64,000 bases of DNA. It comes from Bugula neritina (taxonomy: Eukaryota; Animalia; Bryozoa). Every line of letters begins with the position of its first letter. Within the stretch, counting starts at the first letter, position 1. The DNA lies in the NCBI GenBank assembly GCA_964035545.1, contig OZ037771.1, forward strand, positions 5,179,190-5,243,189. The letters are read 5' to 3'. A program made the position numbers and the translations under genes. Shown here piece after piece: positions 30,827 through 63,775 of this stretch. Under the pieces are notes generated by a model. It did not search any database. It was not told the DNA's origin and worked only from the letters and a program-made list of their open reading frames with translations.

Positions 30827-31369
30827 TTAAATATTCACTGAAGAAGCAATTTGGTTTAGTAAAAATGGAAAGTCAATAATTTCAAGTTTATCTGTACCAA
30901 CATTCGTATTACTATACTTTTCTCAAATATAATTAAATATCATAGCATCATTAGCTAATCTATCGCCATTATCATTCAACAAGTATGATATTTTTTCTAG
31001 ACTCAAACCCCTTGCAATATGAGTTAAGAAGAATATAACGTATTGACCACACACTGTACTATAAAGGGATTGCAGCGGAATATCATTAAATGTCCATTCA
31101 TTACAGTTATTTAGCACATCTCCAATCTCAGGTAGGTTATACGGTGGTACACCATAACTGTCAAAAAATATTCCTTTTCTATCTTCTGTTTTCACAACTG
31201 CCACCCAATGCTCTCCAGGGTGATAGTGTGGTTTCGTATTTATAACCATACAACATGGAAACCTTTGAGCAGACATTGGTATTAGGTCTATAGGAAAGAC
31301 TCCTAAAAAGTTTAATTCTTCAACAGCTCTATTTGCCTTTAATATCCTGTAGATTTGTTTGCTATCCAT
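30827..31369 (-). pseudogene. Polinton adenain-like cysteine protease, left copy (premature TGA at 30923-30925, 32 codons before the natural stop)
   Basis: GEHWVAV, FFDSYG and LQSLYSTVCGQY catalytic motifs; the right copy has CGA at the TGA position. Confidence 0.88.
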
Positions 31370-32150
31370 TATATGTAAAAGTTTGTCATTACAGCCCTGT
31401 TTTTATCCACTTTGATGGCGGAGTTAAACTCAGCGTACACTATAACATTGACTGGTGTGTTCAAAGGCACGTCAAACTTTAACTCTAATCTAGCATTCCC
31501 CTTTTTTATAAGGTGATAGCAACCATCCTCTTGGAGGTTAGGGGTTAAATCGAAAGCTAATAACGAGTAGCCATTATTATATTCTGATCTATCTATCCCA
31601 ATTCCAGCATCGTTAAATGATTTTCCAGTGCTTTCCAGTAACATAAAATAGTTTCTGAGTGTTGTATTTTTTTCAAAATCACTGACTAGAGGTTTTTGTG
31701 GAATCATTTTTCCATCAATTAATAAGCTACAGTATTTCAGAGTTTTATGTTTAAAGTTGAATGGATTAAGATTGTAGGCACCCTCAAAACTTTGAGCATC
31801 TACCAATCCAATGACTATACGTTTGGGTAGAACTCCATTGAACAAATTTTCTTCATTGCATGATAACGATCCTGTCGCAATACTAAAAGTTTTCATTGCT
31901 ACCCTTCGTATTGGATAGATTGCTGGTTTTAATTGTTTTTCCATCATTTCAATATGTCTCAATTGAATTCCATTGTTCACCTTCACTCTTCTGATGAACA
32001 TAGATGCGTGAGCAATTTTCAACTTATATTGTGAGTTAGCAGCAGCCATCAATACAAGTTTATTTGAGTTTCTCACAAGTTTGAGCTTGACATCAATTCC
32101 ATTTAGTAGATACCGGTTTTGGAAAAATATGTCCGATTGAAGTTTACCCA
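31369..32150 (-). pseudogene. Polinton major capsid protein, 3' fragment (inverted duplicate)
   Basis: GKLQSDIFFQNRYLLNG, LPKRIVIGLV, NPFNF, GYSLLAFDLTP; four amino-acid differences from the right copy over 260 aa; no 5' half. Confidence 0.88.
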
Positions 32151-32151
32151 A

Positions 32152-32750
32152 TACATTTCATTAGTAATCTCAGCATTTTTAGTGAACAATTTTTCTCATA
32201 AGAATAATCAGATTTTTTATTTACATTGAACAGTTATTTCATTTGTTAGCATTTCTTCATGATAATTGAGAAGAGCACATTAGTTTGTGTTACATTTCAT
32301 TAGTAATCTCAGCATTTTTAGTGAACAATTTTTCTCATAAGAATAATCAGATTTTTTATTTACATTGAACAGTTATTTCATTTGTTAGCATTTCTTTATG
32401 ATAATTGAGAAGAGCACATTAGTTTGTGTTACATTTCATTAGTAATCTCAGCATTTTTAGTGAACAATTTTTCTCATAAGAATAATCAGATTTTTTATTT
32501 ACATTGAACAGTTATTTCATTTGTTAGCATTTCTTCATGATAATTGAGAAGAGCACATTAGTTTGTGTTACATTTCATCAGCAATCTCAACATTTTTAGT
32601 GAATAACTTTTCTCATAAGAATGATTAGTTTTATTTTATTCATATTGAACATATATTTCATTTGTATTATTTGGCAACATTTCTCAATAGTAATTGAGAA
32701 CAGTACATTAGTTTGTGTTACATTTCATTAGTAATCTCAGCATTTTTAAG
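32152..32750. repeat. 139-bp tandem array (~4.3 units) inside the Polinton, with an inverted copy at ~33921-34010
   Basis: tacatttcat unit starts at 32152, 32291, 32430, 32569 and 32719. Confidence 0.9.
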
Positions 32751-33000
32751 TGATTAAACTTTTTAACACAAATATCACTTTTTCCAAAAAAAAAAGTTAA
32801 CAGACAGCAGCGTATTGAGTATACAAAAGTATAGATACAGTATTAGCTTTGTAAACACATGTAAAATGTTAGCTATTATAATGGTTAATGTAACTCATAA
32901 CAATATTGAAAAAATTAAAGGAATTTCAGATTTGGTTTATTGACTTTGAAATACCATTTCTCATTAGGACCAAGATCCTCTAACTGAATTTCGCAGATGT

Positions 33001-33849
33001 TTAAGGCCCAAACATATTCGTTGCCAGACCTTTTATAGGCCCAGACCTTAACACGGCCGTGAGCCTCATGCACATTTTCTCTAGTTCTTCTGCCGGCAAC
33101 AAAACTGGCTTTCCGTTAACTCGAGCATTAACACACGCTTTGTCTTCCATATTTCTAACCACATCTACATAACAGCCCACGAGTGGGCTGTTCTCATTTT
33201 TACCGTGAAACCTAATGTTCTTACCAATAATTTGAGAAGCATGATTTTTCAAATTTTCTAATACCCTACTTTTTTTATATACAAGCATGGGCTGCAGTTT
33301 GGAACTGTCGATTTGTAACATTTGAGTTCACCGATGAACTCCGAAGATCTAACATAAAAATGTTTTTCATGGTTGTATGTCAAAACTATCCTATCCCCCT
33401 CCCTATGGAAAGCCAGTTTTGTTGCCTCAAATGATGTTTCATCTTTTAGGTAATGTTGCTTACCATCATCGATCCTGAAACAAAATAAATAGTCTATCAA
33501 AACATTATTTAGGGAGTAATTTTTACAATACAATAAAATGAAAAGTGTTATATCTGTGCTAATATAATGAAATAATGTAGGTGAAGATATAATACTTACT
33601 TTGCATGGTCTTTTTCATTTTCGTTTTGAGGGTTTCGAGATTGTGCAGTGGTTTCAGTTTCTCTATAATTCAAGATATATAATTTATTATGACTTGAAAA
33701 ATAAGTATTATGAACCAAATGTTAAATTTTGTGGTAGATTTAATGTTGTAAGCAGATACCAAGATTTCTAACAAACTTACTTGTCAGGAAGTGTGTGATC
33801 TTCTGTCACTTTAGGAGCTTTTAGTTTTTCCTTATTACTTTCATCATCG
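33001..33849 (-). pseudogene. Spliced Polinton accessory gene of unknown function (exons 33781-33849, 33600-33662, 33001-33474; frameshift in an A-run at ~33270)
   Basis: Canonical GTAAGT donors and pyrimidine-AG acceptors join three exons in phase 2. First exon not identified. Confidence 0.6.
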
Positions 33850-34237
33850 CTAAAAAAATATTTGTTTATTAGCCAAATAACTATCCCTATATATAAAAAG
33901 TAAAAGGTGTCTATTATCTTAAATCATTCTTATGAGAAAAGTTATTCACTAAAAACGCTGAGATTACTAATGAAATGTAACACAAACTACTGTACTGTTC
34001 TCAATTACTACCAATAAGCTGCTTAAAAAAATTTATTTGCTGAAAATGCTAAGATATCAGGCTAATGAAATGTATTATAAACTAAAGTACTTTAGCTCAC
34101 AATTTACCACTCCTAATGACTGTAAAGAAAAGTTAATAGAAGAAGTAAAAGTTTGTTGTGTATAATAATAATAATATTGAACTACAAGAACACTTTAGTA
34201 TATTATAACAAAATAATTACTTTGAATATAAGTTGTC

Positions 34238-37200
34238 ATGGTTGATGAAAGTAAATTATTTAAATTATGTCTTGTTTCTTTAGAAAGATTTACGTGTTCT
34301 GAATGCAACAAGTCATACGCCCACAGACAAAGTCTTAGTAGACATAGAAACGTACATAAAAGGAGATGTAAACAATGCAAGCAGTTGATCAATGATAAAT
34401 CCCATGAATGTTCTTTGGTAAGACACACCATAAGACATACTCATATTGAATCATGATCATTCTCATGAATGTTTAAAAATGTTGACTAGAGAGACTAAAA
34501 TCTATTAAATAGCAAACTTATTTCAATGGTAGATTTACATTTGGTTAAAAAATATATTGTAGAAACCTGTATCAAGTGAGGTTGTTACAAAGAAACAACT
34601 TGACACTGGAACGACCTTTGTTGATGAAGAAGACTCCCCAATACCATATGATGGTCCTAAAGAAAAAGAAACGAATTCACTATTCATAAAAAACTGGTCG
34701 GCAATAAAAAGCTATGCTTTAGTTCGTAGATACACAAAGATCTACAATATAAGAGTTGAAAACAATAATATATCCGATACTATTGGAGGAAACAACATGA
34801 TAAAACTGTATCAAGATCAAAAAATGAAATTCAAAGTCAATGCTTCTTTAGGTTTTATCCTAATTAACAACACAGAACAAAAGTTGAGATACTACCATGC
34901 ATCAGCTAACAAAGATAGATTGCTAGACAAGCCTGTGCTCATTGAAACACTGGCAGATTTCAGAGAATTCATTGATCAGTTAACGGATAAAGATTTCATT
35001 GAGTATGCTACACAAAACAGACCCGATACTTCATGGTCAATACACATGATCACCAACATAGCTTTTTATGTTTACCCGATATACAACCATCCAATTGGAT
35101 GTCCAGTATTACTCCCAGACTACATCAAAAACAACAAAGCTATTGTATCAGCTGATATAGATACTAATGGAAGGCTTTACACTGATAAACTATGTATCTT
35201 TAGAGCCCTATGCCTGATGAGGAATAAACATTCCTTAGAATCATCCACCAGAGATTATTTTCGGAAATTTGTTGACTCAAAACAGATATCTGAAGATCAA
35301 TTTCAAGGCGTTACAGTAGATGATTTACCAAGCATAGAGAGACTTTTTACAATATCTATTAATGTTTACTGTTTGGAAGAAGTAGCCTGTGAAACCATCG
35401 CAAAACTACATTACAGATCAACTTCAAATTTCAAAGAACACTTAAATTTACATTTGTATGAAAATCATTTCTCTTGGATTAAAAACATCAGACTATATAC
35501 AAAATCATACAGATGCGAATATTGCTCAAAGTTAATGAAATCAGCAAATGCTGTCAAGAGACATTCGTTGTCATGTTCTTCAGCTACAAAGTTTGTTTAT
35601 CCATCCGGTATTGCGACTACTTCAAAGACAATATTTGAAAAGCTGAACGAATACGGAATAACAACTGATGAAAGCAGAAAGCATTATCCATACTTTGCTG
35701 TTTGGGATTGTGAAGCGTACTTTGACAAAACTGACTTACCCAACAACACTAAAACAATTGAATGGACAGCAAAACATCGACTAGCATCAATTAGTATTGC
35801 TAGTAATGTTGCTGGTTTTACGGAACCTGTGTGCTTTGTGAATGAAAGCAATTCAGAGTATGATGTGGTACATCAAATGATGATATACTTGGAGAAATTG
35901 TCAGATTTGTGCTACCAACGTTTGAAGTTGAGATACAAATCAATCTTCACACAGATTGAACAGAAAAGAAATGAACTAATAACACTTGAAGAACAAGCCG
36001 GAGACAATGCTAGCGTTGAACAGCTTGAAAAAACTTTTGATAAACTTGAAGAAGAGCTCAACAGCTACATATCAGATTTGCTTGTTTTTGGATTCAACTC
36101 TGGATCTTATGACATTCCATTGATTAAGAAGCATTTGTTCAAGTATCTTTTAGATCAAGACCATTCTATTGATTTTGGATTAAAAAAAGCTAATTCCTAC
36201 ATGTGCATCAAAACGGAAAGGTTACGCTTTCTGGACATTGTAAATTACCTAGCACCGGGGTTTAGCTACGCTGATTATTTGAAGGCAATGGAGATAGATT
36301 CGAAGAAGTTCTTCTGGATTTATGAAAAGTTTACTTCTATGGAAATGTTGAAGCAAACAGATTTTCCATCCCGTGAAGACTTTTACAGTGAGCTGAAAAA
36401 AGAAACAATAAGCTTAGAAGATTACAACTACTGTAGAAAAATATGGGTTGAAAATAACATGAAAACGTTGAAAAACCTACTCATTTACTACAACAATGCT
36501 GATTGTACAGGTTTTGTGAAAGCTTTACAAAAACAAAATGAGTCTCTCCGAACTAAAAATCTAGATTTTAAAATGGCTTTTTCAATGCCATGTTTGGCAA
36601 TTAAACGATTATTTGACCTCAAGCAAAAGAATGCGCAACTTTTCCTTTATGGGGAAAAAGATAAAGATCTGTATAATCTCGTAAAGCAAAATATTAGAGG
36701 TGGAATGTCAATCATATTCCACAGATACCAACACGCAGAAACTATAAAAATCAAATCAGAATATTATGGAGGAAATGCTAAAACCACAAAGGTTTGTTTA
36801 GGAGTAGACATATCTGGAATGTATTTGTCAAACCTAATGCGTGATATGCCAACTGGAATTTATGTTCGAAGAAAGAGGGAAAATGAATTTAAGCTTGAAA
36901 AAAGATACACCCATGGTCAGCTAGCAACTGAATGGATTAAATGTAAAGAGAAAGAAATGCAAATTGAATTTCAGCACATGTTTAATGGAGTGGAGAAGCG
37001 AGTTGGTGGAAAAAAGATACCAGTAGATGGGTATGTTGATACTCCTAATGGTCCAGTTGTACTCCAGTTCTCCGGTTGTTACTTCCATTCACACATGTGT
37101 GATTATTCACCCAATGGGAGATTTACTGATTGAGTCAAAGATCTTGAAAATCAATTGCGAACTTACAAAAACCTGAAGTATCTAGAAGATATAGAGTGTA

Positions 37201-38673
37201 CAGTACACCATTCATGGGAATGTGAATTTCTTGAGCTGAAATCACGTAATTCTTTGCTAAAGAAATTTTATGAGGAATTGAATTATATGGTTGACAAAAG
37301 ATATAAGCTAACTGAAGATCAAATACTAGCTGAAGTCAAATCTGAAAAACTATTTGGTATGGTTGAATGTGATATAGAAACATCTGATGAACTAAAGAGT
37401 GTATTCGCAGAGTTTCAATCAATTCCAAAACACGCTTATATGCAAAGGAAAGATGTAGGTCATCATATGGAACAATTTGCAGTAGCAAATGGGTTACTCA
37501 AATCTCCACAGAAAACGTTGCTGAACAGCTACTTTGGTCACAAAATGTTATTTGCAACTCCATTGCTTGCATGGTATCTAAACCATGGGCTTAGAGTTAC
37601 TAAAGTTCACCAAGTTATACAATATAATCCAACAAAGTGCTTTGAAGCTTTTGGAATGGAAGTGATGCAGGCAAGACGTGAAGGAGATGTAGATCCCTCG
37701 AAGAAACTCATGTCAGATTCTTCCAAGTTGATGGGTTAGTAAATTTTACACAAATAAAATTCAGTTTTAAATTTATCAAACGAACATCTACTCATATTGT
37801 CAAATATTTTGAGTGTAGTTAAAGAATTGAAAGATATTATTAATTTTGCTTTCAGGGAATAGCGCATATGGTTGAACATTGGTTAATCGTGAGAACCATA
37901 AGGATATCTCATTTCTTCAATCATCTGATGCAGAAATAGCAAATGTAGTGAACAGTAGGAGATTCCATCACTTAGATGAGATAGGAGATGATATTGTGGA
38001 ATACAAAATGAAAAGGCTAGAATTGCTTTGGATGTACCTATTCAAATAGGTTTCTTTGTGCTAGAGTATGCTAAGTTGCTACTGCTTAGATTTTATTATC
38101 ATTTCCTTCTAGAATATATACCATTTGAAAAGTTTGCTCTTATCGAATCTGATACTGACTCGATGTATTTTTCACTTTCTGAACCTAATCTGTTTTTAGC
38201 TGTGTCTGTTGAAAAAAGAGGAGATTTTTTTATGCAGTACGACAAATGGTTCGCTAAGGATTATTGTGACAAGCATAAGAATGATTTTTTTCATTGCATG
38301 TTTAACAATCAAAGTTGGTGCTCTAATGACTGTTGTAAATCGGCGGCTAAATACGACTCAAGAACTGTAGGAAAATTCCACGTGGAATGGAAAGGTGAAG
38401 GAGTAATCGCGTTGTCTAGCAAATGCTATTACTGTATTGGTGAGCAGGCCAAATCAAGTTCTAAAGGTATATCCAAACGTCACAACAAATTAACTGAAAA
38501 AGACTATATGCACGTGTTGATGAATCAGGATATAACTTAAGGTGTAAATAAAGGATTCAGAGTTAGAGGTGATAGCATATTAACGTACACACAAAATAGA
38601 AAAGGGTTGAATTATATGTACGGTAAAAGTTGTTATGAGTGATCATGTGACCACTTTACCTACTCATTTATAA
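34238..38673 (+). pseudogene. Protein-primed family B DNA polymerase (pPolB) with N-terminal C2H2 exon and internal VSR-like nuclease insert; introns 34418-34562 and 37735-37855
   Basis: Exonuclease motifs WDCEA, FGFNSGSYD and YNNADC; IRGGMS; motif A GVDISGMY; motif B KLMG|NSAYG split by an intron; motif C ESDTDSMY; KCYY/SSKGI. Nonsense codons at 37131, ~37873 and 38538; frameshifts at ~38010 and ~38628. Confidence 0.92.
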
Positions 38674-38862
38674 TCTGTTTTCTTTTTACTTTTGTTATAT
38701 GGGCTTGGTAAATAGAGTTATATATTTTATATTTTTTTTTATCTTTTTATAAATAAAGATCTTACTTGTACATCCAAAAAACTTCCCACAGTTGTTTGAA
38801 GTAAATAAATAGAATTCATCAACTTTCTTTGTATATATCAGTCATTCTGTATTTTGAGCTTG

Positions 38863-39522
38863 ATGATGACCTTACAATTAAAGCATCCGTTCTCTGCTAT
38901 AATTACAGGACCATCAATGGCTGGAAAGTCTCAATGGGTAGCAAAGTTGTTGGAGCATAACCAAACGATGGTTTCACCATCTATGGAAAAAATAGTTATT
39001 TGTTACAAGGAATGGCAACCATTATATGATGAGCTAACAAATATTGAATTCCATCAGGGTATTATTGATGTAGATACACTAGATAAAGCAATAAAAAAAC
39101 TAATCATATTTGATGATATGATGGAACAAGTAAGCGAGAAGATAGCTGAAATATTTACCAAACACGCTCATCATAGAAACATAAGTGTAGTTTTTATAAC
39201 TCAAAATTTATTTCACAAAAGTCCACACATAAGAACAATGAATTTAAATGCCTCATATATTGTATTATTTAAAAATTCAAGAGATGTTAACCAAGTGAGT
39301 TATCTTGCTAGACAAATGTATCCAACAGGTCAGAGCAAGTTTTTAGTTAATGCATTTAAAGATGCAACTGCAATACCTTATGGGTATTTGTTTATTGATC
39401 TCAGACAAGACACTCATGATTTAGTTAGAATTCGAACGGGAATATTTCCAGATCAAAAAACCTATATTTACATGCCCAAATGTAGCTCAACATCATTAAC
39501 ACGTTACACTTCAATGAAGTAA
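38863..39522 (+). CDS. A32/FtsK-like genome-packaging ATPase
   Basis: Walker A GPSMAGKS, Walker B IIFDD, HHRNISVVFITQNLF, PYGYLFIDL. Confidence 0.92.
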   Translation: MMTLQLKHPFSAIITGPSMAGKSQWVAKLLEHNQTMVSPSMEKIVICYKEWQPLYDELTNIEFHQGIIDVDTLDKAIKKLIIFDDMMEQVSEKIAEIFTKHAHHRNISVVFITQNLFHKSPHIRTMNLNASYIVLFKNSRDVNQVSYLARQMYPTGQSKFLVNAFKDATAIPYGYLFIDLRQDTHDLVRIRTGIFPDQKTYIYMPKCSSTSLTRYTSMK

Positions 39523-39526
39523 CACT

Positions 39527-39865
39527 ATGAGTAAAAGAGTTAAGAAATACGCACCTACCTTAGAACTTTTAGCTAAATGTGATAAACAGACAGCGAATTC
39601 AGTAATCAAATCAGCTAAACCTGAATTCCTAAACTGTATAGGTGATATATGTTACAATATTTTACAAGGAAGAGTTCCTCTATCACCTAAAGATAAAACA
39701 AAGCTTTCTAAATACAAACAACAGATACGAAAAATTGCTAATAAGAAAACTACACTAAAGTCAAAAAGAGAACTTATTCAAAAGGGTGGATTTTTAGGCG
39801 CTATTTTAGCACCACTTCTCGGGTCATTGATAGTTCCTATAGTTAAATCAATTATTAGAAAATGA
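39527..39865 (+). CDS. Small basic Polinton virion-type protein with GG-FL amphipathic C-terminus
   Basis: ICYNILQGRVPL...QKGGFLGAILAPLLGSL; sits next to the ATPase as in Polintons. Confidence 0.7.
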   Translation: MSKRVKKYAPTLELLAKCDKQTANSVIKSAKPEFLNCIGDICYNILQGRVPLSPKDKTKLSKYKQQIRKIANKKTTLKSKRELIQKGGFLGAILAPLLGSLIVPIVKSIIRK

Positions 39866-40481
39866 GTGAAGATGCAAAGAAATTTTTACTAATAGATGCA
39901 TCAAATATTGATCAACTAATGAAGCATACCAAACAGAATGAGAGGTTAATACCCATAGAAAGAAGAGAGCTGATGAGAATAGATAAATTTATGCTAGATA
40001 TAATTAACAACAGTTTGCTTACCGAAAATGAAAAAGTAATGGAATACAATAAAGTCCTAACTGAATTTCAGAGCTTACCAAATATTCAAAGTGTGAAACC
40101 TAGTCAAACAAAAATTGTTCAGAATGAAAAGCAACAAGTAGTTAAATAACACCCAATTACGATGCTACTGTAGGTGTACAGCAGCGTTATAAAAGTAAAG
40201 CTAATAACGTTATGTCTTCGCTGAAAATGTCAAAACAGCTTAACATTACTAATTCTGGTGAATTAATAGTCAACAATGAAAAGATTAATGGGAGCAATAT
40301 ATCAGACCTTCTAAATAAAGCTATCAATCCTAATCATAATGTCCAAGATATACCTGGATGGGAAGAATTTCAAGAGATTTTAATCAAATCGAATATACCG
40401 AAATCATTACTAGCAACCAAAATTTTGGAACCTATAAAACACGACAAATTGAATCAACAACGAAACACAGCAAAATGTTAA
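39862..40481 (+). pseudogene. Uncharacterised Polinton protein, frameshifted near 40146
   Basis: ORFs 39862-40149 and 40212-40481 join through a one-base shift with open sequence between; GELIV...GSNISDLL...PGWEEF motif. Confidence 0.65.
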
Positions 40482-40496
40482 GAAAATGGAAACCTT

Positions 40497-41606
40497 ATGA
40501 TGCCTAACAAAAGTAGGAGCAATAAACAAAGATTATCAAATAAATTAAAATCCATTTACTTTAACGCAGCTTCACCAGCTGGATTTAGTGGTAAATCAAA
40601 ATTGATATTGAAAGGAAAAGTATCACCACAAGCAATCAATAAATGGTTATCCAGAACAGATACATACACATTACACAAGCCTATAAAAAAGAAATTTAAA
40701 CGAAGAAAATACATAATATCAGGAATAAATGCATTGTGGCAATGCGATCTCACAGAGTTGTTACAATTCGCTAAATATAATAATGGTTACAAATACGTTC
40801 TTTTGAAAATAGATGTATTTAGTAGAAAAGCTAGCGCAATACAACTCAAGACAAAATCAGCGAGTGATGTCACTAATGCATTTGAAGACATACTAAAAAA
40901 TGAGAATGCTTTCCCAGATCAACTACAAACGGATAAAGGGAAAGAATTTTTCAACTCAAAATTTCAATCAATGCTGAGTAGTCACAACATTCACCACTAC
41001 GCTAGTGAAAATCAAGAAATCAAAGCTTCTTTGGTTGAAAGGTTACAAAGAACCTTAAAATCAAGACTATTTAGATATTTCACACACTCTAATTCATATC
41101 AGTGGATTGATGTGCTACAGGATTTTATCGATTCGTATAATAAAACTGTTCATTCAAGCACAGGCATGAAACCCGTTGATATCAACGTGAAAAACCAGGA
41201 AGAAATTTGGCAAAGAGTATATAACCCAGATAATCTTTCATCAGCAAATATAACATTCAAGTTTTCTCCTGGTGATAAAGTACGAATATCAAAGTACTCC
41301 ACTGTTTTTGCAAAAGGTTACATACCTTTATGGAGCGAAGAGATTTTTACGGTCAAAGAAAAGCATTACACAGATCCTCCAGTCTATTCTTTGCAAGATG
41401 AATCTGGTGGTAAGCTTAAGAGTACGTGGTATGAACAGGAACTACAATACGTACAAACTGAAGATGATGTGTACAAAATTGAAGCAATAGTTGGAAAACA
41501 AAAAATAAATGGAAAGATTCAATATTTGGTTCGTTGGAAAGGTTATCCGCCCAGTTTTGATTCCTATGTTGACAAAAAAGACATGATTGGTGATTATAAA
41601 AACTAA
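40497..41606 (+). CDS. Polinton retroviral-like (c-)integrase with C-terminal chromodomain
   Basis: DDE motifs WQCDL, LQTDKGKEF and VERLQRTLK; KGYIPLWSEEIF; chromodomain YKIEAIV...YLVRWKGYPPSFDSYV. Confidence 0.95.
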   Translation: MMPNKSRSNKQRLSNKLKSIYFNAASPAGFSGKSKLILKGKVSPQAINKWLSRTDTYTLHKPIKKKFKRRKYIISGINALWQCDLTELLQFAKYNNGYKYVLLKIDVFSRKASAIQLKTKSASDVTNAFEDILKNENAFPDQLQTDKGKEFFNSKFQSMLSSHNIHHYASENQEIKASLVERLQRTLKSRLFRYFTHSNSYQWIDVLQDFIDSYNKTVHSSTGMKPVDINVKNQEEIWQRVYNPDNLSSANITFKFSPGDKVRISKYSTVFAKGYIPLWSEEIFTVKEKHYTDPPVYSLQDESGGKLKSTWYEQELQYVQTEDDVYKIEAIVGKQKINGKIQYLVRWKGYPPSFDSYVDKKDMIGDYKN

Positions 41607-41643
41607 CTGTTTCAAATTAAATTCTCATTTAGTGAGCGACAAG

Positions 41644-43146
41644 ATGAGAGTAGTGTTACCATCAAATTCGTCTATACAACACTTTCCACATAACTCTTTA
41701 GCAAAGTTCTCAGTTCAGTTACCTCATGCATTGGATTTATCAAAAGGACAATGGGAATTTGGTTTATCAGAAATGCAGTTTCATAAATCGTGGTTTAACG
41801 TGAAAGATGCTAATATGACGGTAAAAAAAGGAGAAGAAATAACACTAGTTTCCTTAAAAGATGGGTTCTACAAAAACCCTGATTTATTACTACAGTATTT
41901 GAATAAAAGTATAGCACAGTTTTGTAATGAAGAAACTGGAAAGTTGTTTTTGTTCAACTTTAATGATATTACGAGAACTTGTCAAATGACCACAGCAATT
42001 AATAAATCTTTAAGCTTTGAATTTAGTACAAATCTAAAACATATTCTCGGATTTACTAACATGGATATCAATGAAGAAGTTGAAAAAATATTAAGGTTTT
42101 CATCAAGAGGTGATGTAGTTCATGACAAAGCTGTCATAATAAATGGACGACAACCAATGGGAGTGGATAGTATTTTCAATTTAATGGTGTATTGCGACTT
42201 GGCTCAAACTAGTTTAGTTGGTGATGTAGAAGCACCACTTTTGAGATCAGTGCCCGTCCCTGGGAAGCAGTGGACAAGCCAATGCTCTACATTTAGTAAA
42301 AATGATAATAAAGAATTAGTTAGCAGAAGAGCGTTTACTGCTGGAAGTAATACTGTTCAACTTATGGGTAAACTTCACTCTGACATATTTTTCCAAAACC
42401 GGTATCTACTAAATGGAATTGATGTCAAGCTCAAACTTGTGAGAAACTCAAATAAACTTGTATTGATGGCTGCTGCTAACTCACAATATAAGTTGAAAAT
42501 TGCTCACGCATCTATGTTCATCAGAAGAGTGAAGGTGAACAATGGAATTCAATTGAGACATATTGAAATAATGGAAAAACAATTAAAACCAGCAATCTAT
42601 CCAATACGAAGGGTAGCAATAAAAACTTTTAGTATTGCGACAGGATCATTATCATGCAATGAAGAAAATTTGTTCAATGGAGTTCTACCCAAACGTATAG
42701 TCATTGGATTGGTAGATGCTCAAAGTTTTGAGGGCGCCTACAATCTTAATCCATTCAACTTTAAACATAAAACTCTGAAATACTGTAGCTTATTAATTGA
42801 TGGAAAAATGATTCCACAAAAACCTCTAGTCAGTGATTTTGAAAAAAATACAACACTCAGAAACTATTTTATGTTACTGGAAAGCACTGGAAAATCATTT
42901 AACGATGCTGGAATTGGGATAGATAGATCAGAATATAATAATGGCTACTCGCTATTAGCTTTCGATTTAACCCCTAACCTCCAAGAGGATGGTTGCTATC
43001 ACCTTATAAAAAAGGGGAATGCTAGATTAGAGTTAAAGTTTGACGTGCCTTTGAACACACCAGTCAATGTTATAGTGTACGCTGAGTTTGACTCCGCCAT
43101 CAAAGTGGATAAAAACAGGGCTGTAATGACAAACTTTTACATATAA
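41644..43146 (+). CDS. In-frame chimera: minor capsid (penton) N-terminal part fused to major capsid C-terminal part
   Basis: Penton motifs LPSNSS...FPHNSL...WEFGLSE and VYCDL...VGDVEAPLLR, then from ~42300 capsid motifs LVSRR...QLMGKLHSDIFFQ to YAEFD. Confidence 0.8.
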   Translation: MRVVLPSNSSIQHFPHNSLAKFSVQLPHALDLSKGQWEFGLSEMQFHKSWFNVKDANMTVKKGEEITLVSLKDGFYKNPDLLLQYLNKSIAQFCNEETGKLFLFNFNDITRTCQMTTAINKSLSFEFSTNLKHILGFTNMDINEEVEKILRFSSRGDVVHDKAVIINGRQPMGVDSIFNLMVYCDLAQTSLVGDVEAPLLRSVPVPGKQWTSQCSTFSKNDNKELVSRRAFTAGSNTVQLMGKLHSDIFFQNRYLLNGIDVKLKLVRNSNKLVLMAAANSQYKLKIAHASMFIRRVKVNNGIQLRHIEIMEKQLKPAIYPIRRVAIKTFSIATGSLSCNEENLFNGVLPKRIVIGLVDAQSFEGAYNLNPFNFKHKTLKYCSLLIDGKMIPQKPLVSDFEKNTTLRNYFMLLESTGKSFNDAGIGIDRSEYNNGYSLLAFDLTPNLQEDGCYHLIKKGNARLELKFDVPLNTPVNVIVYAEFDSAIKVDKNRAVMTNFYI

Positions 43147-43609
43147 TAGATAGCAAACAAATCTACAGGATATTAAAGGCAGATAGAGCTGTTGAAGAAT
43201 TAAACTTTTTAGGAGTCTTTTCTATAGACTTAATACCAATGTCTGCTCAAAGGTTTCCATGTTGTATGGTTATAAATACGAAACCACACGATCACCCTGG
43301 AGAGCATTGGGTGGCAGTTGTGAAAACAGAAGATAGAAAAAGAATATTTTTTGACAGTTATGGTGTACCACCGTATAACCTACCTGAGATTGGAGATGTG
43401 CTAAATAACTGTAATGAATGGACATTTAATGATATTCCGCTGCAATCCCTTTATAGTACAGTGTGTGGTCAACACGTTATATTCTTCTTAACTCATATTG
43501 CAAGGGGTTTGAGTCTAGAAAAAATATCTTACTTGTTGAATGATAATGGCGATAGATTAGCTAATGATGCTATGATATTTAATTATATTCGAGAAAAGTA
43601 TAGTAATAC

Positions 43610-43880
43610 TGTAGTGAGGACGTAATACGCGCGTCCCCCGCATTCCTTCAGCCTATCCAAGTGCGTCACGTGATAGGCCTTAGTTAGTAGTAGTTTTGCA
43701 GTAGAGAGAGTGTGCTAACTAAGCGAGGATGTAATCTCTAATCTGTGTACATGCTGTATCTTTTGTATAATTAGTAGTAAATAAACTTGGAAACTTTTAC
43801 CTAAATACTTTATTGGTGTAAATAAATAGACATAATTACAAGCTAGGAACCCACGCATAGTAGTTACACAAATTACTACA
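43610..43880 (+). repeat. 5' LTR-like segment (271 bp)
   Basis: TGTAGTGAG...CACAAATTACTACA, contains AATAAA, directly followed by the PBS. Confidence 0.85.
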
Positions 43881-43881
43881 G

Positions 43882-43899
43882 TGGTGGCAGCGGTGGGAT
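43882..43899 (+). promoter_or_regulatory. Primer-binding site complementary to the tRNA-Leu 3' end
   Basis: TGGTGGCAGCGGTGGGAT is the reverse complement of ATCCCACCGCTGCCACCA, the 3' end of metazoan tRNA-Leu(AAG/TAG type). Confidence 0.88.
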
Positions 43900-43915
43900 C
43901 TTGCGTATAGCAGTC

Positions 43916-44865
43916 ATGGCAGAAGACGGCACGGAGCTACCCATTCCACTGAATGAAGGTGAGAGAGATAATGTTGATATACCTGCGGAACCAGTGGTGT
44001 TAGATGAAGAAGTGAGAATTCTTAGAGAGCATGGTGAAGATAGATACCGGCTGAAGGCCCCAACTTCACTGGCGAAGAAGCAGTGGAGCAATTCATCCAA
44101 GAATTCCAGGATGTGATGGAGATTGCAGAATGGCCGCCAAGGGTGGCGTTGCTAAAGCTCAGGATGGCGCTGACGGGCAAAGCTAAGCCGTACGGAGCTG
44201 GACCCGACATAGACGGAATCTTTGCTTCCCTGCGGGCCCGTTTTGGCATCTCTCCCATAGATGCGCGGGCCCGTCTACAGAGGATGCGGCGTGATCCTCA
44301 CACGTCATTAGAAGAGCACGCTGCCACGGTGTACCCATTAGCGCAGATCGCATTCCGCGATCTGCCTCCGGTACACCGTGAGAGGTATACCTATGATGCC
44401 TTCGTGCAGTCCATCAACGACTTGGGGCTCCACCATCAACTCCAAGCGAGGGGAGTCACCACAGTCGAAGATGCACTTGCGGTGGGAGAAGCCTATCTCT
44501 TGGCGACTCATATGCACCGCAACCGCGTGGCCTCCCGCCAGGTGACCACGGAGCACTCTACTGCTCACACCGAATTAAATGCGGAACCCTCCGCGGTGGC
44601 TAGTGTGAACCAGATGTCACTAGCGTCAAAAATCTCACAGATGACTGACATGCTAGATAAACTGGTCACCACATTAGCCTCCCCAAGCCAGGTAGATACT
44701 GCCCGTGAGCCTTGCGGGCCGCAGGTACAATCACCAGGCATGGGGCACCACTTCTGCTGGGAATGCGGAAGGCCAGGACATTTCCAGAGAAACTGCCCTC
44801 AACTCCCACCAGGGTTAAACTACCCCGGCCCGCAGATGTTCCCACCTCCTGCAGGCCGTCTGTGA
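43916..44865 (+). CDS. gag: Gag (capsid-like region plus CCHC zinc knuckle); apparent 1-nt deletion near 44062
   Basis: KAP-x-FTGEEAVEQFIQEF joins ORFs 43901-44116 and 44083-44865; knuckle CWECGRPGHFQRNC. Confidence 0.85.
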
Positions 44866-47072
44866 ATCACCCAGGGAGGCCCGCGCGTCTGTCGCCCCGC
44901 TGGGCGCCGCGCGGAGATGCTGTGAAGTGGCGACCCCCGCGGCAAGTAGGCTCGAGCCACTCGCCGCCTGGGTCCTCTACGCCACTCCGGCACCAACACG
45001 GAGCCGGCAGACGGTTGACCACAGAGCCTGCGAGGGAAACGGTACAAGCGCCGCAAGGCGTACCGCCCCAACCTCGGCAGCTGGTCAATAGTCGCCGCCA
45101 ACCGTGGACCCCTCGACCCACAGCGAGGGAGGTGCAACCACGGCACACTCAATTGCAGCCGCACGGAAGTAGCTACTTCCTACCAGGGAAGCTAGCCGGC
45201 AAGCCTGCCAACTTCCTCCTGGACTCCGGCTGCACCACCAACCTCCTTAGCCGTCAGTTCTTTGACACCCTCAGCGCTAAGGTCAAGGACGGGTTGGCAC
45301 CGTATGAGGGGGATCATGGCACCCTGGCAGACGGGTCGTGCATCCCCTTCTACGGCATTATTGAGCTAACTGGTTACGTCCGTAACCAGGCCATCCAAGA
45401 GACGTTTATCGTCGGGCAGCTCAACGAGGATGCTATCCTCGGGATGCCATTCTTACAACGACACGGTTGTCGCATCGATTTCAGTAAATCTGCGATAATC
45501 ATGGGCGACAAGGAGCTCGCTTGTGTCGATAAGTTTGGTCGTCCTCTAGCGGGAGCAGTGCAGGTAGTACGAAGCTGTACTATACCAGGCCACTCCCGGG
45601 CTACCGTCCGCTGCAAGGTAGACGGTGGCCAAACCTCTAAGTTGGGAGTTGTCGAAAGTACGCACTCGAGAGTCCAACTTGCCCGTAGTTTTAGCCGGCT
45701 CACGGGGCAAGGAGAGATCTCAGTGCAGTGTGTCAACCCTTTCTCAGAGACAGTAGACCTACCACCCAGATCCATGCTGGGTCGCTTCCATCCTGTCCAG
45801 GAGGAAGCCATTGGGCCGTCGTCGGGAGCTACGACGGAAGGTCCTCAGCAGAGCCCGTCTCGAGGGCGGAGGACCGTCCCAACCCACGCCTCCCCTCCTC
45901 CAGGGACGCGTGGCTGCACAGGCAACGGGAAGCGCCAGGCTATGGCTAGGTTGCCACATGGTTACAGTGAGGCGTTCAGCCACACAGACCACGGAGCCCG
46001 CCTAAATAGAGCAGGCTGCCGTGAGGTACCACGGGCGGCGAGGACCGCCCCTGCTCAGCCACTCCAACAGAGGGCTGACACGCCCCCGGAGGCTGCCCAG
46101 AGCCTCCGCGCCAAACCTGTATGGGCTGGTAACGTCAGGGAGCTGCCGAAGCTCCAGGAATGCCTTCCTGGGGTGGTAGCCAACGTGTACCGAGCGAAAC
46201 AGGAGGGGCGACGACCCAGTAGTACACAACGGCGACAGGGATGCGCCGAGTTACGGCTGTACTGTCAACGTTGGAGCTCTCTGCGGGTCGGGCCAGATAG
46301 TCTGCTAACCATGACCTTGGCCGCCAACAGCAGACAGCCAGCCAGGAAGAGGGTTGTCTGCCCAGTTGCCATCCGCCGGAAGTTGATACAAGACACCCAC
46401 GAGGAGACTCACGGAGGAGTCCAAGGGGTGGTCACCAAGCTACAACTCCGGTGGTACTGGCCTAACATGGAACGGGATATCCGACGCAGAGTGAGACGGT
46501 GCAAAGTCTGCCAGACCAACAAGCATAGCCGTCTCCCTGGTGAAGTGGGGCGGCAGACGCGTTGTGCGAGAAGGTCTCGGCAGGCGGAGACTGTCAACCT
46601 GGCCGGAAACACCTCCATGACACGTCAGGAAGACTTGGCGAGGCGAGAAAGGCTACTTCCGTCCTTGAAAGTGCGCTCACCGCCCCCAACGTCAAGCCTG
46701 CCATCATCACCACTTCCGGAACCAGAAACAGGTCCGGAAGTGCAAAAACCCCCCGTGGGAGGGGCTCCGCAAGGAGATACCAACATAGGACCAGGACCAC
46801 ACACTAGGCAACTTCCAGCGTGTCTCAGAGACTGTGTACGTGACCGCGGTATAAGCGGCAGTAACAAAAGTCTAGAGAGGCCTTGCATGGGAAAACAGGC
46901 AAAGAGCCGTGGGAGTCGTGATCACCACGAGAATTTCAACTTTTGCCTCGGCGGAATCTCACACGAGATTCATCCGCTGGAAGTAAAAAGCCCTAGTCAC
47001 GTTTCACAACCACGCTGTCCAGTCTTTTCCTATGTTGATGCAGTCGAGAGTAGACGTGCCAGTAAACAGTAA
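44712..47072 (+). CDS. pol: Truncated Pol (-1 frame to gag): aspartic protease plus integrase H2C2 zinc finger, no RT/RNase H/DDE core
   Basis: FLLDSGC...AILGMPFL protease; HEETHGG...WYWPNM...CKVC finger; no YxDD, RNase H or D,D(35)E motifs seen. Confidence 0.85.
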   Translation: MRAAGTITRHGAPLLLGMRKARTFPEKLPSTPTRVKLPRPADVPTSCRPSVNHPGRPARLSPRWAPRGDAVKWRPPRQVGSSHSPPGSSTPLRHQHGAGRRLTTEPARETVQAPQGVPPQPRQLVNSRRQPWTPRPTAREVQPRHTQLQPHGSSYFLPGKLAGKPANFLLDSGCTTNLLSRQFFDTLSAKVKDGLAPYEGDHGTLADGSCIPFYGIIELTGYVRNQAIQETFIVGQLNEDAILGMPFLQRHGCRIDFSKSAIIMGDKELACVDKFGRPLAGAVQVVRSCTIPGHSRATVRCKVDGGQTSKLGVVESTHSRVQLARSFSRLTGQGEISVQCVNPFSETVDLPPRSMLGRFHPVQEEAIGPSSGATTEGPQQSPSRGRRTVPTHASPPPGTRGCTGNGKRQAMARLPHGYSEAFSHTDHGARLNRAGCREVPRAARTAPAQPLQQRADTPPEAAQSLRAKPVWAGNVRELPKLQECLPGVVANVYRAKQEGRRPSSTQRRQGCAELRLYCQRWSSLRVGPDSLLTMTLAANSRQPARKRVVCPVAIRRKLIQDTHEETHGGVQGVVTKLQLRWYWPNMERDIRRRVRRCKVCQTNKHSRLPGEVGRQTRCARRSRQAETVNLAGNTSMTRQEDLARRERLLPSLKVRSPPPTSSLPSSPLPEPETGPEVQKPPVGGAPQGDTNIGPGPHTRQLPACLRDCVRDRGISGSNKSLERPCMGKQAKSRGSRDHHENFNFCLGGISHEIHPLEVKSPSHVSQPRCPVFSYVDAVESRRASKQ

Positions 47073-47434
47073 TCAGTTACCACTCTCATTCCAAAATGTC
47101 TTACTATTCTGGATCGAAGGGTGAGTTAATTATGTTTTTGGTACGATAACTAGACTGCATCAGTCAGCTTAGCTACACTAGCTAGCTGGAGATTCGATAA
47201 TGATAAACAGTGGTGGGAATACACGTCGACTTTGATTTTAAATAATCTGTCATAGCGAGTGTGTTCTCCATCAACTATTCATTAGCCTGAATCTCACGAG
47301 TGTAACTGAACAGAGTACCGGTCAGGCTGTACACGCCGACGGTGCCTCAGTGTATAATCTTTAACACTGCTACTCTTTCAGATCACACTCGAGTGACCAC
47401 CTCCCGGTCACGGGACCAGCCAACCTCTCTGTCT

Positions 47435-48148
47435 ATGGAAGAAGAGCCTGTAATGGAGAATGGCATACCAGTAGTACTCCGCCGACGACACCGTTGGGTG
47501 TCACCCACGACAGAGAGGAGAATTGAAGAAGCCTGGGGACCCAGTGGACCACACCGAACCTGCCAGGTCTGCTTTGAGGAGTGCCCGTCGCACCGCTCCC
47601 TGCGTTTACATGTAGACGCCCATTTCCTACTCCACTTCTGTCCCTGCGGGTTCCACGACGTCTACCCGTATCCCGTGACAGTACATAAGCTAAGCTGCTT
47701 CGCCGGAGAGAACCACACTGTTGATGAAGACAGTTTCCCCCTATACCTGGATGCCATCAAGCCAGTCATCAGGAAGGCTATCACCCTGGCCGCACTAACG
47801 TCAGGGTTTCACGTACTGCTACTATCTGCCCGCCATAAGTCCCCTATGGTTCAGGGCCCACCTCCTACCCCCGTCAACCCTAGCAACACCCCAGAAGTAG
47901 AAGAAACAACCATATCCCGTCTAACGGAGACCCCTACAACCCCACCAAGGCCTAGCCAGCTGGCTAACGTAGAAAAGCGGCTTCTAAGACTGCAAGCCGA
48001 GTTCACACAACTTGCCCCTGACTTGCTGGATACGACGACAGGTCTATACCAGTTGAAGGACTCAGTAGGGCGACTGAAGAGGTGGCTACGGGCCCGACAG
48101 GCTCGACACAGAGCACGGTCGCTACAAGAAGCAGAGTCCAACCAATGA
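47435..48148 (+). CDS. ORF3: zinc-finger plus coiled-coil protein in the env position
   Basis: CQVC-x12-HVDAH followed by CPC...H...C; C-terminal heptad stretch; splice acceptor ctactctttcag at 47370-47381; open frame from 47342. Confidence 0.7.
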   Translation: MEEEPVMENGIPVVLRRRHRWVSPTTERRIEEAWGPSGPHRTCQVCFEECPSHRSLRLHVDAHFLLHFCPCGFHDVYPYPVTVHKLSCFAGENHTVDEDSFPLYLDAIKPVIRKAITLAALTSGFHVLLLSARHKSPMVQGPPPTPVNPSNTPEVEETTISRLTETPTTPPRPSQLANVEKRLLRLQAEFTQLAPDLLDTTTGLYQLKDSVGRLKRWLRARQARHRARSLQEAESNQ

Positions 48149-48428
48149 GAATGCCTGGGGTAGGCACCTTCGTTGAGCTATAGCTCGTTTGGAATGTGAC
48201 GAGCGCTCCGACATTGGCCCGCGTGCTGGTAAGCACCCTCTCTCTTAATAGCTGACTAGATGTGTGTGATCGATCACCCTGTTGTCTTCTAATGTAAACG
48301 TTGTCGTGTTTAACTATTTCTTTTCTTACTCTTTGTGGGTTTACTTATATATGTTTTCTTTTTTGGATTATTGTATGGTTTTTCATTATGTTTTTTTATT
48401 GTGTTATCAGAAAGTAGGGCTTTCTGCT

Positions 48429-48439
48429 GGGGGGGACGG
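48429..48439 (+). promoter_or_regulatory. Polypurine tract
   Basis: GGGGGGGACGG directly before TGTAGTGAG. Confidence 0.8.
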
Positions 48440-48791
48440 TGTAGTGAGTAGTGCAAGTACAAATACAGGAATCGCCCTCTCCCTACTCTTGGAATACTTA
48501 GACTCTTATGTAGCAACCAATTAGCAGCTCCGGAAGATATGCTTCCGATTCACGTGACACTTCCCGGGTTATTAACATTATATCACGTTGTTGTAAGCGG
48601 AGGCTTGTAGTAGTAACATGTGTTAGTAGTTGACTCTTGTATAGGATAATTTGATGTGATGTTTGGTTTATGCTTTATTGTGGATAATAAATATAATTAC
48701 TCGATAGCTACCCTAGTAATTGATAACAGAATAACCAGCTAACTATACGCAAGTAAATAACTCACGCTCAGTAATTGCACAAATTACTACA
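48440..48791 (+). repeat. 3' LTR-like segment (352 bp)
   Basis: TGTAGTGAG...CACAAATTACTACA, preceded by the PPT and followed by TSD ATAC. Confidence 0.85.
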
Positions 48792-49755
48792 ATACGAATG
48801 TTGGTACAGATAAACTTGAAATTATTGACTTTCCATTTTTACTAAACCAAATTGCTTCTTCAGTGAATATTTAACACTATCATATTTGTACTGACATCTA
48901 AATAAGCTAGAATTCTATTATTCATTACTGTCACACAAAAACACTTTATTTTTTTTCACAGTAGTTAATACTATTTAATTCTTAATGTTGTAGTATATAT
49001 TCTTATTTTTACTTGGTCATAGTGAATAATTATAATAAAGATATGTTAACCATTCAACAGACGGTATCAGTGCGCATCATTCATATGATATTTTTTTGCA
49101 GTATTTGAAAGTAGTACTTACCAGCATAGTGTATCAATCCCACAGTGAAAAACGTTATGAGCAACTGAATAATACGGTGTTCATTTAACTCTCTCTGCAA
49201 TCACTTGATAATCGCTATGTGAGGGTAATATATTAGTGTATTTAATCGGATTGTATGCGAAGTTCAATAGTATATATCTATTTAGAACACTCAACTAATC
49301 GCAGCAAACGCATCTTCAAGACTGATGATATATACAATAGCTTTATAAAGATTCAATATGGTTATTACATTAACCATACTGGTTGCTTGCAAATAGCCAT
49401 AAAGATAAGGTCTATTCATAACATAAAGGAAAACAGCACAATAATACTATTTACAAAACATCTTACATAACCACATAACGCAATGTCATGCAAATTACAG
49501 TATATCAATGCAATTATCAATAAGACCTGAGAAAGTGTGCCAAACCGTTATAATAAATGCTGAGACAGTCTTGGTAGCTATGAATCTAACAAAGACTGTA
49601 AACTATTTCTAAACAGCTATGCCTCCTCAAGTGCGATGTAAACTAATTGAAAATGCCCTATACAATTCTACCGACGATGTAAACTAGTTGAAAATGCCTT
49701 ATACAATTCTACCGACGATGTAAACTAGTTGAAAAGTGGCTTCCTAACTTAATAG

Positions 49756-51187: not shown

Positions 51188-51280
51188 AAGGCAATGTTTA
51201 TTAGGGAGAGGGGTGAAGCCGTGAAGGGTGTATATATTATGGTCTACACTATACATTCTAGTAGAATGTAAAGTGTAGAC

Positions 51281-51795
51281 CATGGGTGCTCAACCTGTTT
51301 TGGGAAAAGGCCGTAAAAAAGCCTGTGCCACCAAAAAGGCCACTAGAAAATTCAGTGTCAATTTTACTGTCAAAACCCTCCATATAATTATATCATTAAT
51401 TAAAGCCTATTTTCAAATTTATATGTATTTATTTTGTTACGAAAAACAGATCCAGGAGAATAACTTGATTTGTTCATAAAAGTAAGCATTTTTTGTACAG
51501 TTTGATAACTTGGTTTAATATCCGATGCTGATATGTGAAGAATATCGCCCAAATAGGAGTCCGTTAGTCTCAATCTGAATTTACTTTTAGCATACCCCAT
51601 TCAAGAGAATAACTGTTCACATCAATATGTACTAGCAGCCATGATTCATATAGTAAACTTGGGAATTAGTGAAAAGCAAAATTTAGGAAGGATTGAAACT
51701 GAACTAAATTTTTATTTTACAAAGAGACCAAAAGGCCACATTTGCCAGCTCAAAAGGCCGCCAAAAGTCAGAAAGCCGCAGGTTGAGCATGGCTG
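51281..51795. mobile_element. hAT-type non-autonomous element (MITE)
   Basis: Imperfect TIRs CATGGGTGCTCAACCTG / CAGGTTGAGCATGGCTG; perfect 8-bp TSD GTGTAGAC (51273-51280, 51796-51803). Confidence 0.85.

Positions 51796-53565: not shown

Positions 53566-63775
<10,210 letters not shown>

What the first reader, a model, noticed from the sequence alone, without database searches (positions are those of the whole stretch)
43610..48791. LTR retroelement with a perfect TSD but two unrelated LTRs
Seen: both ends are LTR-shaped. The 5' copy (271 bp) is followed by an 18-nt tRNA-Leu PBS and the 3' copy (352 bp) is preceded by a PPT. They share only the first 9 nt (TGTAGTGAG) and the last ~32 nt (acccacgcatagtagttacacaaattactaca vs actcacgctcagtaattgcacaaattactaca); the interiors do not align by eye. 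The ATAC TSD is exact, and the uninterrupted target survives in the other Polinton arm, so this was a single integration. Established: normal reverse transcription makes the two LTRs identical at insertion. Drift cannot explain the difference, because the host Polinton arms, which are older than the insertion, differ by only a few percent. Inference: (a) a family that replicates with asymmetric termini, (b) an RT-less element now moved as DNA by a trans-acting integrase that needs only the TGTAGT/ACTACA tips, or (c) a two-donor integration or conversion joining LTRs of two related families.
Basis: partly seen in the sequence, partly recalled or inferred. Interest (0 to 1): 0.85.

Follow-up and report, generated by a model that had tools for sequence, protein, structure and literature searches.

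The report
Hybrid retrotransposon with two donors' ends
A real single insertion of a defective Gypsy-type jumping gene carries two barely alignable end repeats, likely because it was copied from two sister elements packed in one particle, a rare product of a known copying step; a self-copying asymmetric family is less likely but not excluded.

Summary
In detail: LTR A (43610-43880, then PBS) and LTR B (48440-48791, after a PPT) share only 9 starting bases and 28 of the last 33. The ATAC duplication is exact and the empty site survives in the other Polinton arm. The interior is a Ty3/Gypsy derivative lacking RT, RNase H and the integrase core, a state shared by 6 of 42 relatives, plus an intron-bearing accessory ORF. 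No genome was held, so copies could not be paired. In public contigs A also follows the PPT (X1), and a B-like or non-A LTR precedes the PBS side (X4, X3). A and B thus look like two ordinary LTR lineages on nearly identical interiors, and this copy like their hybrid. Best route (inferred): plus-strand transfer between two co-packaged templates, a model published for asymmetric HIV-1 LTRs. DNA-only movement is unlikely: PBS, PPT and inner LTR ends are intact, and intron-less copies occur. X1 depths fit both A-A plus B-B subfamilies and an A-B majority, so family-wide asymmetry stays open (about 12%). The scan's earlier notes held nothing alike.

The parts
43606..43609 (+). 5' copy of 4-bp target-site duplication (ATAC)
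43610..43880 (+). LTR A, 271 bp, TGTAGT...ACTACA; CACGTG at 43667, AATAAA at 43780 and 43821
43882..43899 (+). primer-binding site, 18 nt starting TGG (tRNA-Leu by recall, not tested)
43916..44865 (+). gag with one CCHC knuckle (about 44755-44802); broken by a frameshift into two overlapping frames in this copy
   Evidence: Pfam zf-CCHC E 4e-5; ORFs; 152 homologues
44709..47072 (+). pol remnant, one open frame: aspartyl protease (about 45183-45461), relic of the RT N-terminus, in-frame loss of RT and RNase H near 46083, integrase zinc-binding domain (about 46362-46529), no integrase catalytic core
   Evidence: Pfam; blastp to P0033: residues 1-298 and 747-922 match, nothing between or after
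47096..47120 (+). predicted first exon of the accessory ORF (ATG plus 8 codons; phase matches exon 2)
   Evidence: phase 1 on both sides
47121..47381 (+). GT..AG intron, 261 nt; missing from an X1 contig of depth 843
47382..48148 (+). accessory ORF3, second exon: Cys/His-rich N-part and long C-terminal helix; no family assigned
   Evidence: 144 homologues, alignment, no Pfam family for the window protein, low-confidence model, no fold match
48429..48439 (+). polypurine tract
48440..48791 (+). LTR B, 352 bp, TGTAGT...ACTACA; CACGTG at 48551, AATAAA at 48686
48792..48795 (+). 3' copy of target-site duplication (ATAC)
30906..30909 (-). empty target site in the inverted second arm of the host Polinton
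   Evidence: empty form also in X1 (joint 43604 to 48791, depth 296)
29987..49746 (.). host Polinton/Maverick-like element: packaging ATPase (38809-39522), rve+chromo integrase (40482-41606), adenain-like protease (43113 onward, insertion at its 3' end); about 2.1 kb of the right end is mirrored at the left end
   Evidence: polymerase-like (34563-38540) and capsid-like (41587-43146) labels are recalled, Pfam gave no fitting hit

Best explanation
This is one insertion of a non-autonomous Ty3/Gypsy retrotransposon whose 5' and 3' LTRs likely come from two different sister templates, joined during reverse transcription by an inferred plus-strand transfer between molecules. Shown: single TSD with empty site, intact PBS and PPT, RT-less pol, and LTR A behind the PPT in another contig. 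Likely: B-type LTRs also serve on the PBS side. Inferred: an A-type and a B-type RNA were co-packaged with enzymes from an autonomous relative. [quoted passage not shown] The finished DNA had A on the left, B on the right and normal TG..CA tips, and the helper integrase inserted it once. Under the standard cycle such a copy would not breed true.
For: Single integration: exact ATAC TSD, collinear flanks, empty site. A as a 3' LTR: X1 joint from the PPT to 43610, depth 377; the same one-base-shorter PPT allele leads into B at depth 262. That 59:41 split is close to the 56:44 split of two gag length classes. B-like LTR on the PBS side: X4 joint 48733 to 43848, depth 197. RNA passage: intron-less form in X1, depth 843. 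Helper candidates exist: 16 of 42 pol relatives carry RT motifs, up to 63% identical over the protease region; the closest solved RT to P0013 is Ty3-type. All five diagnostic positions in the last 33 nt differ between A and B up to 14 bp from the end, so a later conversion would have had to resolve in 14 bp or 9 bp of homology. Precedent: Joseph et al. 2022 (PMC9278108, passages) propose this transfer for asymmetric HIV-1 LTRs. Pairwise recombination of co-packaged retrotransposon RNAs is documented for Onsen (PMC5668417, passages).
Against: No complete A-A or B-B copy was seen; no genome is held and the collection scans returned no element. In X1 no main-allele PPT-to-A joint and no B-to-PBS joint is listed at 2% share. 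They may fall under the tool's side cut-off (predicted sides 21 and 16, smallest listed 22), but that is my inference. An A-variant marker (depth 2719) matches several interior markers (2647-2740) one to one, as an A-B majority would predict. This copy's gag belongs to the larger length class (about 3430), which equals half of the A depth (3443). If that class is the A-A subfamily, the switch lies inside the interior rather than at the PBS and needs an extra template switch. Contig depths are rough and, by the tool's own note, no copy numbers. The X3 record has depth 2, its unlaid letters were not shown, and X3 is a metagenome. X1 is not on record as DNA or RNA.
Confidence: 0.5

Rival explanations
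1. Other two-donor route before or at integration: two finished cDNAs (A-A and B-B) recombined through their shared interior, or the integrase joined one end from each cDNA at one target and repair fused the interiors.
For: Gives one TSD and needs no homology at the LTR tips. Allows a breakpoint inside the interior, which the gag class of this copy may indicate.
Against: No direct evidence. Needs two cDNAs at one place and time. Rests on my recall of retroviral and Ty1 biology, not on a paper read here.
Confidence: 0.17
2. Post-insertion gene conversion or recombination: an ordinary A-A or B-B copy had one LTR replaced from another copy or cDNA, or two independent insertions at the same ATAC in sister Polintons recombined.
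For: Inter-element conversion of LTRs is reported as common in plants (PMC7251063, passages). It keeps the TSD. Two other X1 contigs match A's flank back to 43604, a hint of target preference.
Against: The tract would have to end within the last 14 bp of B or the first 9 bp of A. The insertion looks young (arms 98.5% alike). X1 depth on the Polinton flank is low (about 300-350 against 3000-6000 in the element), so repeated same-site insertion has few targets.
Confidence: 0.12
3. A family that propagates with fixed asymmetric ends, A at 5' and B at 3', through an RNA route that does not equalise the LTRs.
For: In X1, total A depth (6886) is close to leader and gag depth (6226, 6076) rather than double. 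The A-variant marker matches interior markers one to one. The only listed PPT-to-A joint is minor (377).
Against: The same numbers fit A-A plus B-B subfamilies. The short-PPT allele goes to A and B about equally. A is absent while B-like LTRs and the interior are present in X2, X3 and X4 (depth 0 at 43602-43802). The standard cycle ends in identical LTRs (PMC6894440, passages), and I can offer no pathway that keeps both interiors.
Confidence: 0.12
4. Assembly artefact: the assembler entered through one subfamily and left through another.
For: The family is high-copy with near-identical interiors. No X1 piece spans the element, and X1's empty-site contig runs unbroken over the 3' junction.
Against: Both junctions sit on one site with an exact TSD, and B-specific bases run to 14 bp from the 3' flank, so a B-to-flank molecule must have existed. 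The window has no N and resolves arms 98.5% alike. An X1 contig ends exactly at 43609, as a fork at the 5' junction would cause.
Confidence: 0.05
5. RT-less element now moved as DNA by a trans-acting integrase that needs only the tips, with the LTRs drifting apart.
For: The element lacks RT and sits in a Polinton that encodes an integrase.
Against: PBS, PPT and the two inner LTR ends are preserved while the LTR interiors barely align. Intron-less copies exist. RT-less Gypsy derivatives are readily complemented by RT-bearing kin (16 of 42 hits).
Confidence: 0.03

Closest known systems
Non-autonomous Ty3/Gypsy (Metaviridae) LTR retrotransposons of marine invertebrates
   Same: TG..CA LTRs, tRNA PBS, PPT, gag with CCHC knuckle, protease, 4-bp TSD (4 bp is reported for Gypsy-mobilised animal Helenus, PMC10886601, passages); relatives show PR-RT-RH-IN order and a Ty3-like RT.
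   Different: The two LTRs are not copies of each other. It keeps a 787-codon open pol frame without RT, RNase H or integrase core, and an intron-containing accessory ORF of no known family. Clade within Gypsy not determined.
HIV-1 proviruses with asymmetric LTRs (Joseph et al. 2022, PMC9278108; passages read)
   Same: One integration with unequal LTRs, explained by plus-strand strong-stop DNA from one genome annealing to the PBS of the other.
   Different: There the asymmetry is a deletion in one LTR of the same virus. Here two whole, barely alignable LTR lineages are paired, in a germ-line retrotransposon.
Recombinant progeny of co-packaged Onsen/Copia78 RNAs (Sanchez et al. 2017, PMC5668417; passages) and LTR swapping in soybean autonomous/non-autonomous pairs (Du et al. 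2010; title only seen in reference lists, paper not held, content recalled)
   Same: Pairwise recombination between family members during reverse transcription; LTR lineages exchanged on shared interiors.
   Different: The passages read describe mosaic LTRs from the first strand transfer; the standard outcome is two identical LTRs (PMC6894440), not a mismatched pair.
LTR gene conversion (Jedlicka et al. 2020, PMC7251063; passages)
   Same: Can uncouple LTR divergence from insertion age while leaving the TSD.
   Different: Acts between similar LTRs; here a whole LTR differs up to 9-14 bp from the element's edge.

Membership tests
Ty3/Gypsy LTR retrotransposon (lineage) | RT of Ty3/Gypsy type and pol order PR-RT-RH-IN | tested here: met
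   Met through close relatives: P0028, P0029, P0033 carry PR, RT, RH, IN domains; P0013, 63% identical to the window's protease region, has Ty3 RT as best solved match. The window keeps PR, an RT relic and the IN zinc domain in that order.
Ty3/Gypsy LTR retrotransposon (lineage) | TG..CA termini, PBS, PPT and 4-5 bp TSD | tested here: met
Ty3/Gypsy LTR retrotransposon (lineage) | two LTRs identical at insertion | tested here: not met
   only 9 nt and 28 of 33 nt shared; interiors at the edge of significance
Autonomous LTR retrotransposon | encodes RT, RNase H and integrase catalytic core; unbroken gag | tested here: not met
   P0033 residues 299-746 and those after 922 have no match; gag frameshifted in this copy
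Product of intermolecular plus-strand transfer | each LTR type exists at both positions in parental copies | tested here: inconclusive
   A after PPT shown; B before PBS only indirectly (X4 joint, X3 record 17); no whole parental copy seen
Product of intermolecular plus-strand transfer | breakpoint at the PBS, interior from the 3' LTR donor | not testable with these tools
   needs phased copies; X1 contigs are short and unphased, and depth classes could not be tied to LTR type
Family with fixed asymmetric LTRs | several A-B copies at distinct TSDs, few symmetric copies | tested here: inconclusive
   depth figures fit both models; no genome
Ginger-like DNA transposon derived from a Gypsy integrase (features recalled) | own DDE integrase and terminal inverted repeats of tens of bases | tested here: not met
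   no integrase core; terminal inverted match is 6 bp (sequence)

The most novel reading that the evidence does not exclude
An RT-less Gypsy lineage spreads with a fixed pair of unlike LTRs, A at the 5' end and B at the 3' end, by routine intermolecular plus-strand transfer from a few A-ended donor copies. LTR identity would then not be a necessary outcome of retrotransposition, and such families would be invisible to LTR finders.
Probability: 0.12. Interest if true: 0.85.

Novelty: new variant of a known kind. Interest (0 to 1): 0.4.

Why it matters
LTR dating and every de novo LTR finder assume two near-identical LTRs. A young insertion with an exact TSD, a preserved empty site and LTRs that barely align is a clean natural counter-example, and would be a germ-line record of plus-strand transfer between molecules, so far proposed for HIV-1. 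As a one-off hybrid it is a curiosity with methodological value. If many copies prove to be A-B, it would be a new replication habit. The family itself (long-kept RT-less pol frame, spliced accessory ORF) is a modest extra.

Tried and rejected
No genome for the window. Metagenome scan with an LTR-end pattern: 7 loci, all 7 chance matches without element sequence. Viral-contig scans with ORF3, pol, PBS, PPT and a Polinton protein, and prokaryote-genome scans with ORF3 and P0013: no loci. No RNA holder listed. Cluster look-up of 10 proteins gave no names, so the host animal is not identified. Translated LTR or PBS remnants in 295 stored proteins: 3 carried PBS-like peptides, none told the LTR type. 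ORF3: no Pfam family for the window protein, weak coiled-coil and zinc-finger hints in a few of 42 members, model pLDDT 55.5, no fold match; the Atlas gave no answer. My first reading of X1 depth as showing an A-B majority was withdrawn once the symmetric model fitted equally. Drift rejected (arms 98.5% alike). Crossover between copies at different sites rejected (exact TSD, collinear flanks). Spread as a passenger of the Polinton rejected (flank depth about a tenth or less of element depth in X1). Paper searches for asymmetric, dissimilar, heterologous, non-identical or two different LTRs found no retrotransposon family with fixed unlike LTRs; the library lacks most subscription papers, and Lauermann and Boeke 1997 and Du et al. 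2010 were not held. No supplements were read. Papers opened without bearing: PMC554778, the S. osmophilus preprint, PMC8220671 (passages). Two earlier scan notes (Penelope hairpins) were unrelated.

Full report
Observation. The element runs from 43610 to 48791. LTR A is 271 bp and is followed by one spacer base and an 18-nt PBS; LTR B is 352 bp and follows a G-rich PPT. They share the first 9 nt, the last 14 nt exactly and 28 of the last 33. blastn finds nothing else in common and no further copy in the window. The interiors sit at the edge of significance: above all 500 crude shuffles under one scheme, matched by 132 of 1000 dinucleotide shuffles under a stricter one. Both have CACGTG followed by AATAAA. 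ATAC is duplicated on both sides, and the site is empty in the inverted Polinton arm at 30906-30909; the arms are 98.5% identical over 2153 columns.

Anatomy. Behind the PBS lie gag with a CCHC knuckle, frameshifted in this copy, and a 787-codon pol frame with protease and integrase zinc-binding domain. Against a full-length relative (P0033) the frame matches residues 1-298 and 747-922 only, so RT, RNase H and the integrase core are lost. Of 42 pol hits, 6 show the zinc-domain motif without RT motifs, 16 have RT motifs and 20 show neither. The RT of P0013, 63% identical to the window over the protease region, is closest to Ty3 among solved structures. A third ORF has a 261-nt GT..AG intron and a short in-phase first exon; it has 144 relatives but no family, usable model or fold match. 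The host is Polinton-like, with ATPase, rve-chromo integrase and adenain-like protease.

Other copies. No genome is held. One metagenome scan gave 7 chance loci, and viral and prokaryotic scans gave none. The usable evidence is contigs of four public runs, of the five listed, laid on the locus. X1 holds 61% of the sampled words and is not on record as DNA or RNA; it may or may not be the source individual. In X1 a contig joins the PPT to LTR A (depth 377), so A also serves as a 3' LTR. The same one-base-shorter PPT allele leads into B at depth 262. In X4 a B-like LTR runs into the A-like end on the PBS side (depth 197). LTR A has no cover in X2, X3 or X4, while B-like sequence and the interior do. 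X1 also holds the intron-less form (depth 843) and the empty site (depth 296).

How common is A-B? Contig depths are rough and are not copy numbers. In X1, A totals 6886, the leader 6226 and gag 6076. One reading is an A-B majority: an A-variant marker (2719) matches several interior markers (2647-2740), and no main-allele PPT-to-A or B-to-PBS joint is listed at 2% share. The other reading is two symmetric subfamilies, A-A at about 3430 and B-B at about 2650: half of the A depth is 3443, and the short-PPT allele splits 59:41 between A and B against 56:44 for the two gag classes. The missing joints have predicted sides of 21 and 16 letters, below the smallest side listed (22), so they may be invisible to the tool; this is my inference. 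I first leaned to the A-B majority and withdrew it. The symmetric reading is favoured by the linked PPT marker and by prior biology, but the question is open.

Mechanism. The standard cycle ends in two identical LTRs (PMC6894440, abstract and passages). A mismatched pair with one TSD needs two donors. The simplest route is that an A-type and a B-type RNA were co-packaged with a helper's enzymes, and plus-strand strong-stop DNA from the A-ended template annealed via the common PBS to the minus strand of the B-ended template. Joseph et al. 2022 propose this step for HIV-1 proviruses with asymmetric LTRs (PMC9278108, passages), and co-packaged retrotransposon RNAs recombine pairwise in Onsen (PMC5668417, passages). 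Template switching leaves TSDs intact (PMC4079214, passage). All of this is inferred for this element. Against it: no whole parental copy was seen, and the gag class of this copy may be the A-A class, which would put the switch inside the interior and favour cDNA recombination or two-ended integration with repair.

Rivals. Later gene conversion (PMC7251063, passages) would have to resolve in the last 14 bp of B or first 9 bp of A. Movement as DNA does not explain why PBS, PPT and both inner LTR ends are preserved while the LTR interiors barely align, nor the intron-less copies. An assembly artefact needs a real B-to-flank molecule at this exact site; an X1 contig ends precisely at 43609, but X1 shows no break at the 3' junction, so long reads are still wanted.

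Novelty. The element is a new member of the non-autonomous Gypsy derivatives and fails the identical-LTR criterion. Six paper searches on unlike LTRs found the HIV-1 case but no retrotransposon family with fixed unlike LTRs; most subscription papers are outside the library, two key older papers were not held, and no supplements were read. The scan's earlier notes held nothing alike. Verdict: real, most likely a rare two-donor hybrid, an extreme variant of a known process; interest 0.4. The bold reading, a family spreading with fixed asymmetric ends, keeps about 12% and would deserve 0.85. Counting four junctions in raw reads, or pairing LTRs in a long-read assembly, would settle it.

Noticed in passing
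window 47096-48148: The accessory ORF3 has a GT..AG intron with a short in-phase first exon, and an intron-less form occurs in X1 (depth 843). ORF3 has 144 database relatives but no known family: Cys/His-rich part plus a 60-residue helix.
   Followed up: partly
window 44709-47072: The RT-less pol frame stays open for 787 codons, and the same RT/RNase H loss recurs in 6 of 42 relatives at 52-98% identity, so the deletion lineage is old and the protease plus integrase zinc domain may still be under selection.
   Followed up: partly
window 29987-32150 and 42365-49746: The Polinton's left end is an inverted copy of about 2.1 kb of its right end, including the protease gene and half of the capsid-like gene, much longer than a non-coding terminal repeat. 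The left end starts AGTAGT; the right end lacks the matching tip.
   Followed up: partly
window 51189-51849: A 660-bp element with perfect 30-bp terminal inverted repeats and a TAA duplication; looks like a PIF/Harbinger-type MITE (label recalled).
   Followed up: no
window 55999-60204: Degenerate inverted repeats (81-84% over 31-57 nt, three blocks) about 4.2 kb apart with no ORF of 100 codons between; probably an old non-autonomous DNA transposon.
   Followed up: no
window 43604-43609: Two X1 contigs match the flank of LTR A back to 43604 before diverging, a hint of target-site preference.
   Followed up: no
window 2268-2349: tRNA-Ser(tga) gene called by ARAGORN.
   Followed up: no
window 43878-43913: X2 and X3 show a third kind of LTR end in front of the same PBS, so several LTR lineages share this primer site.
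   Followed up: no
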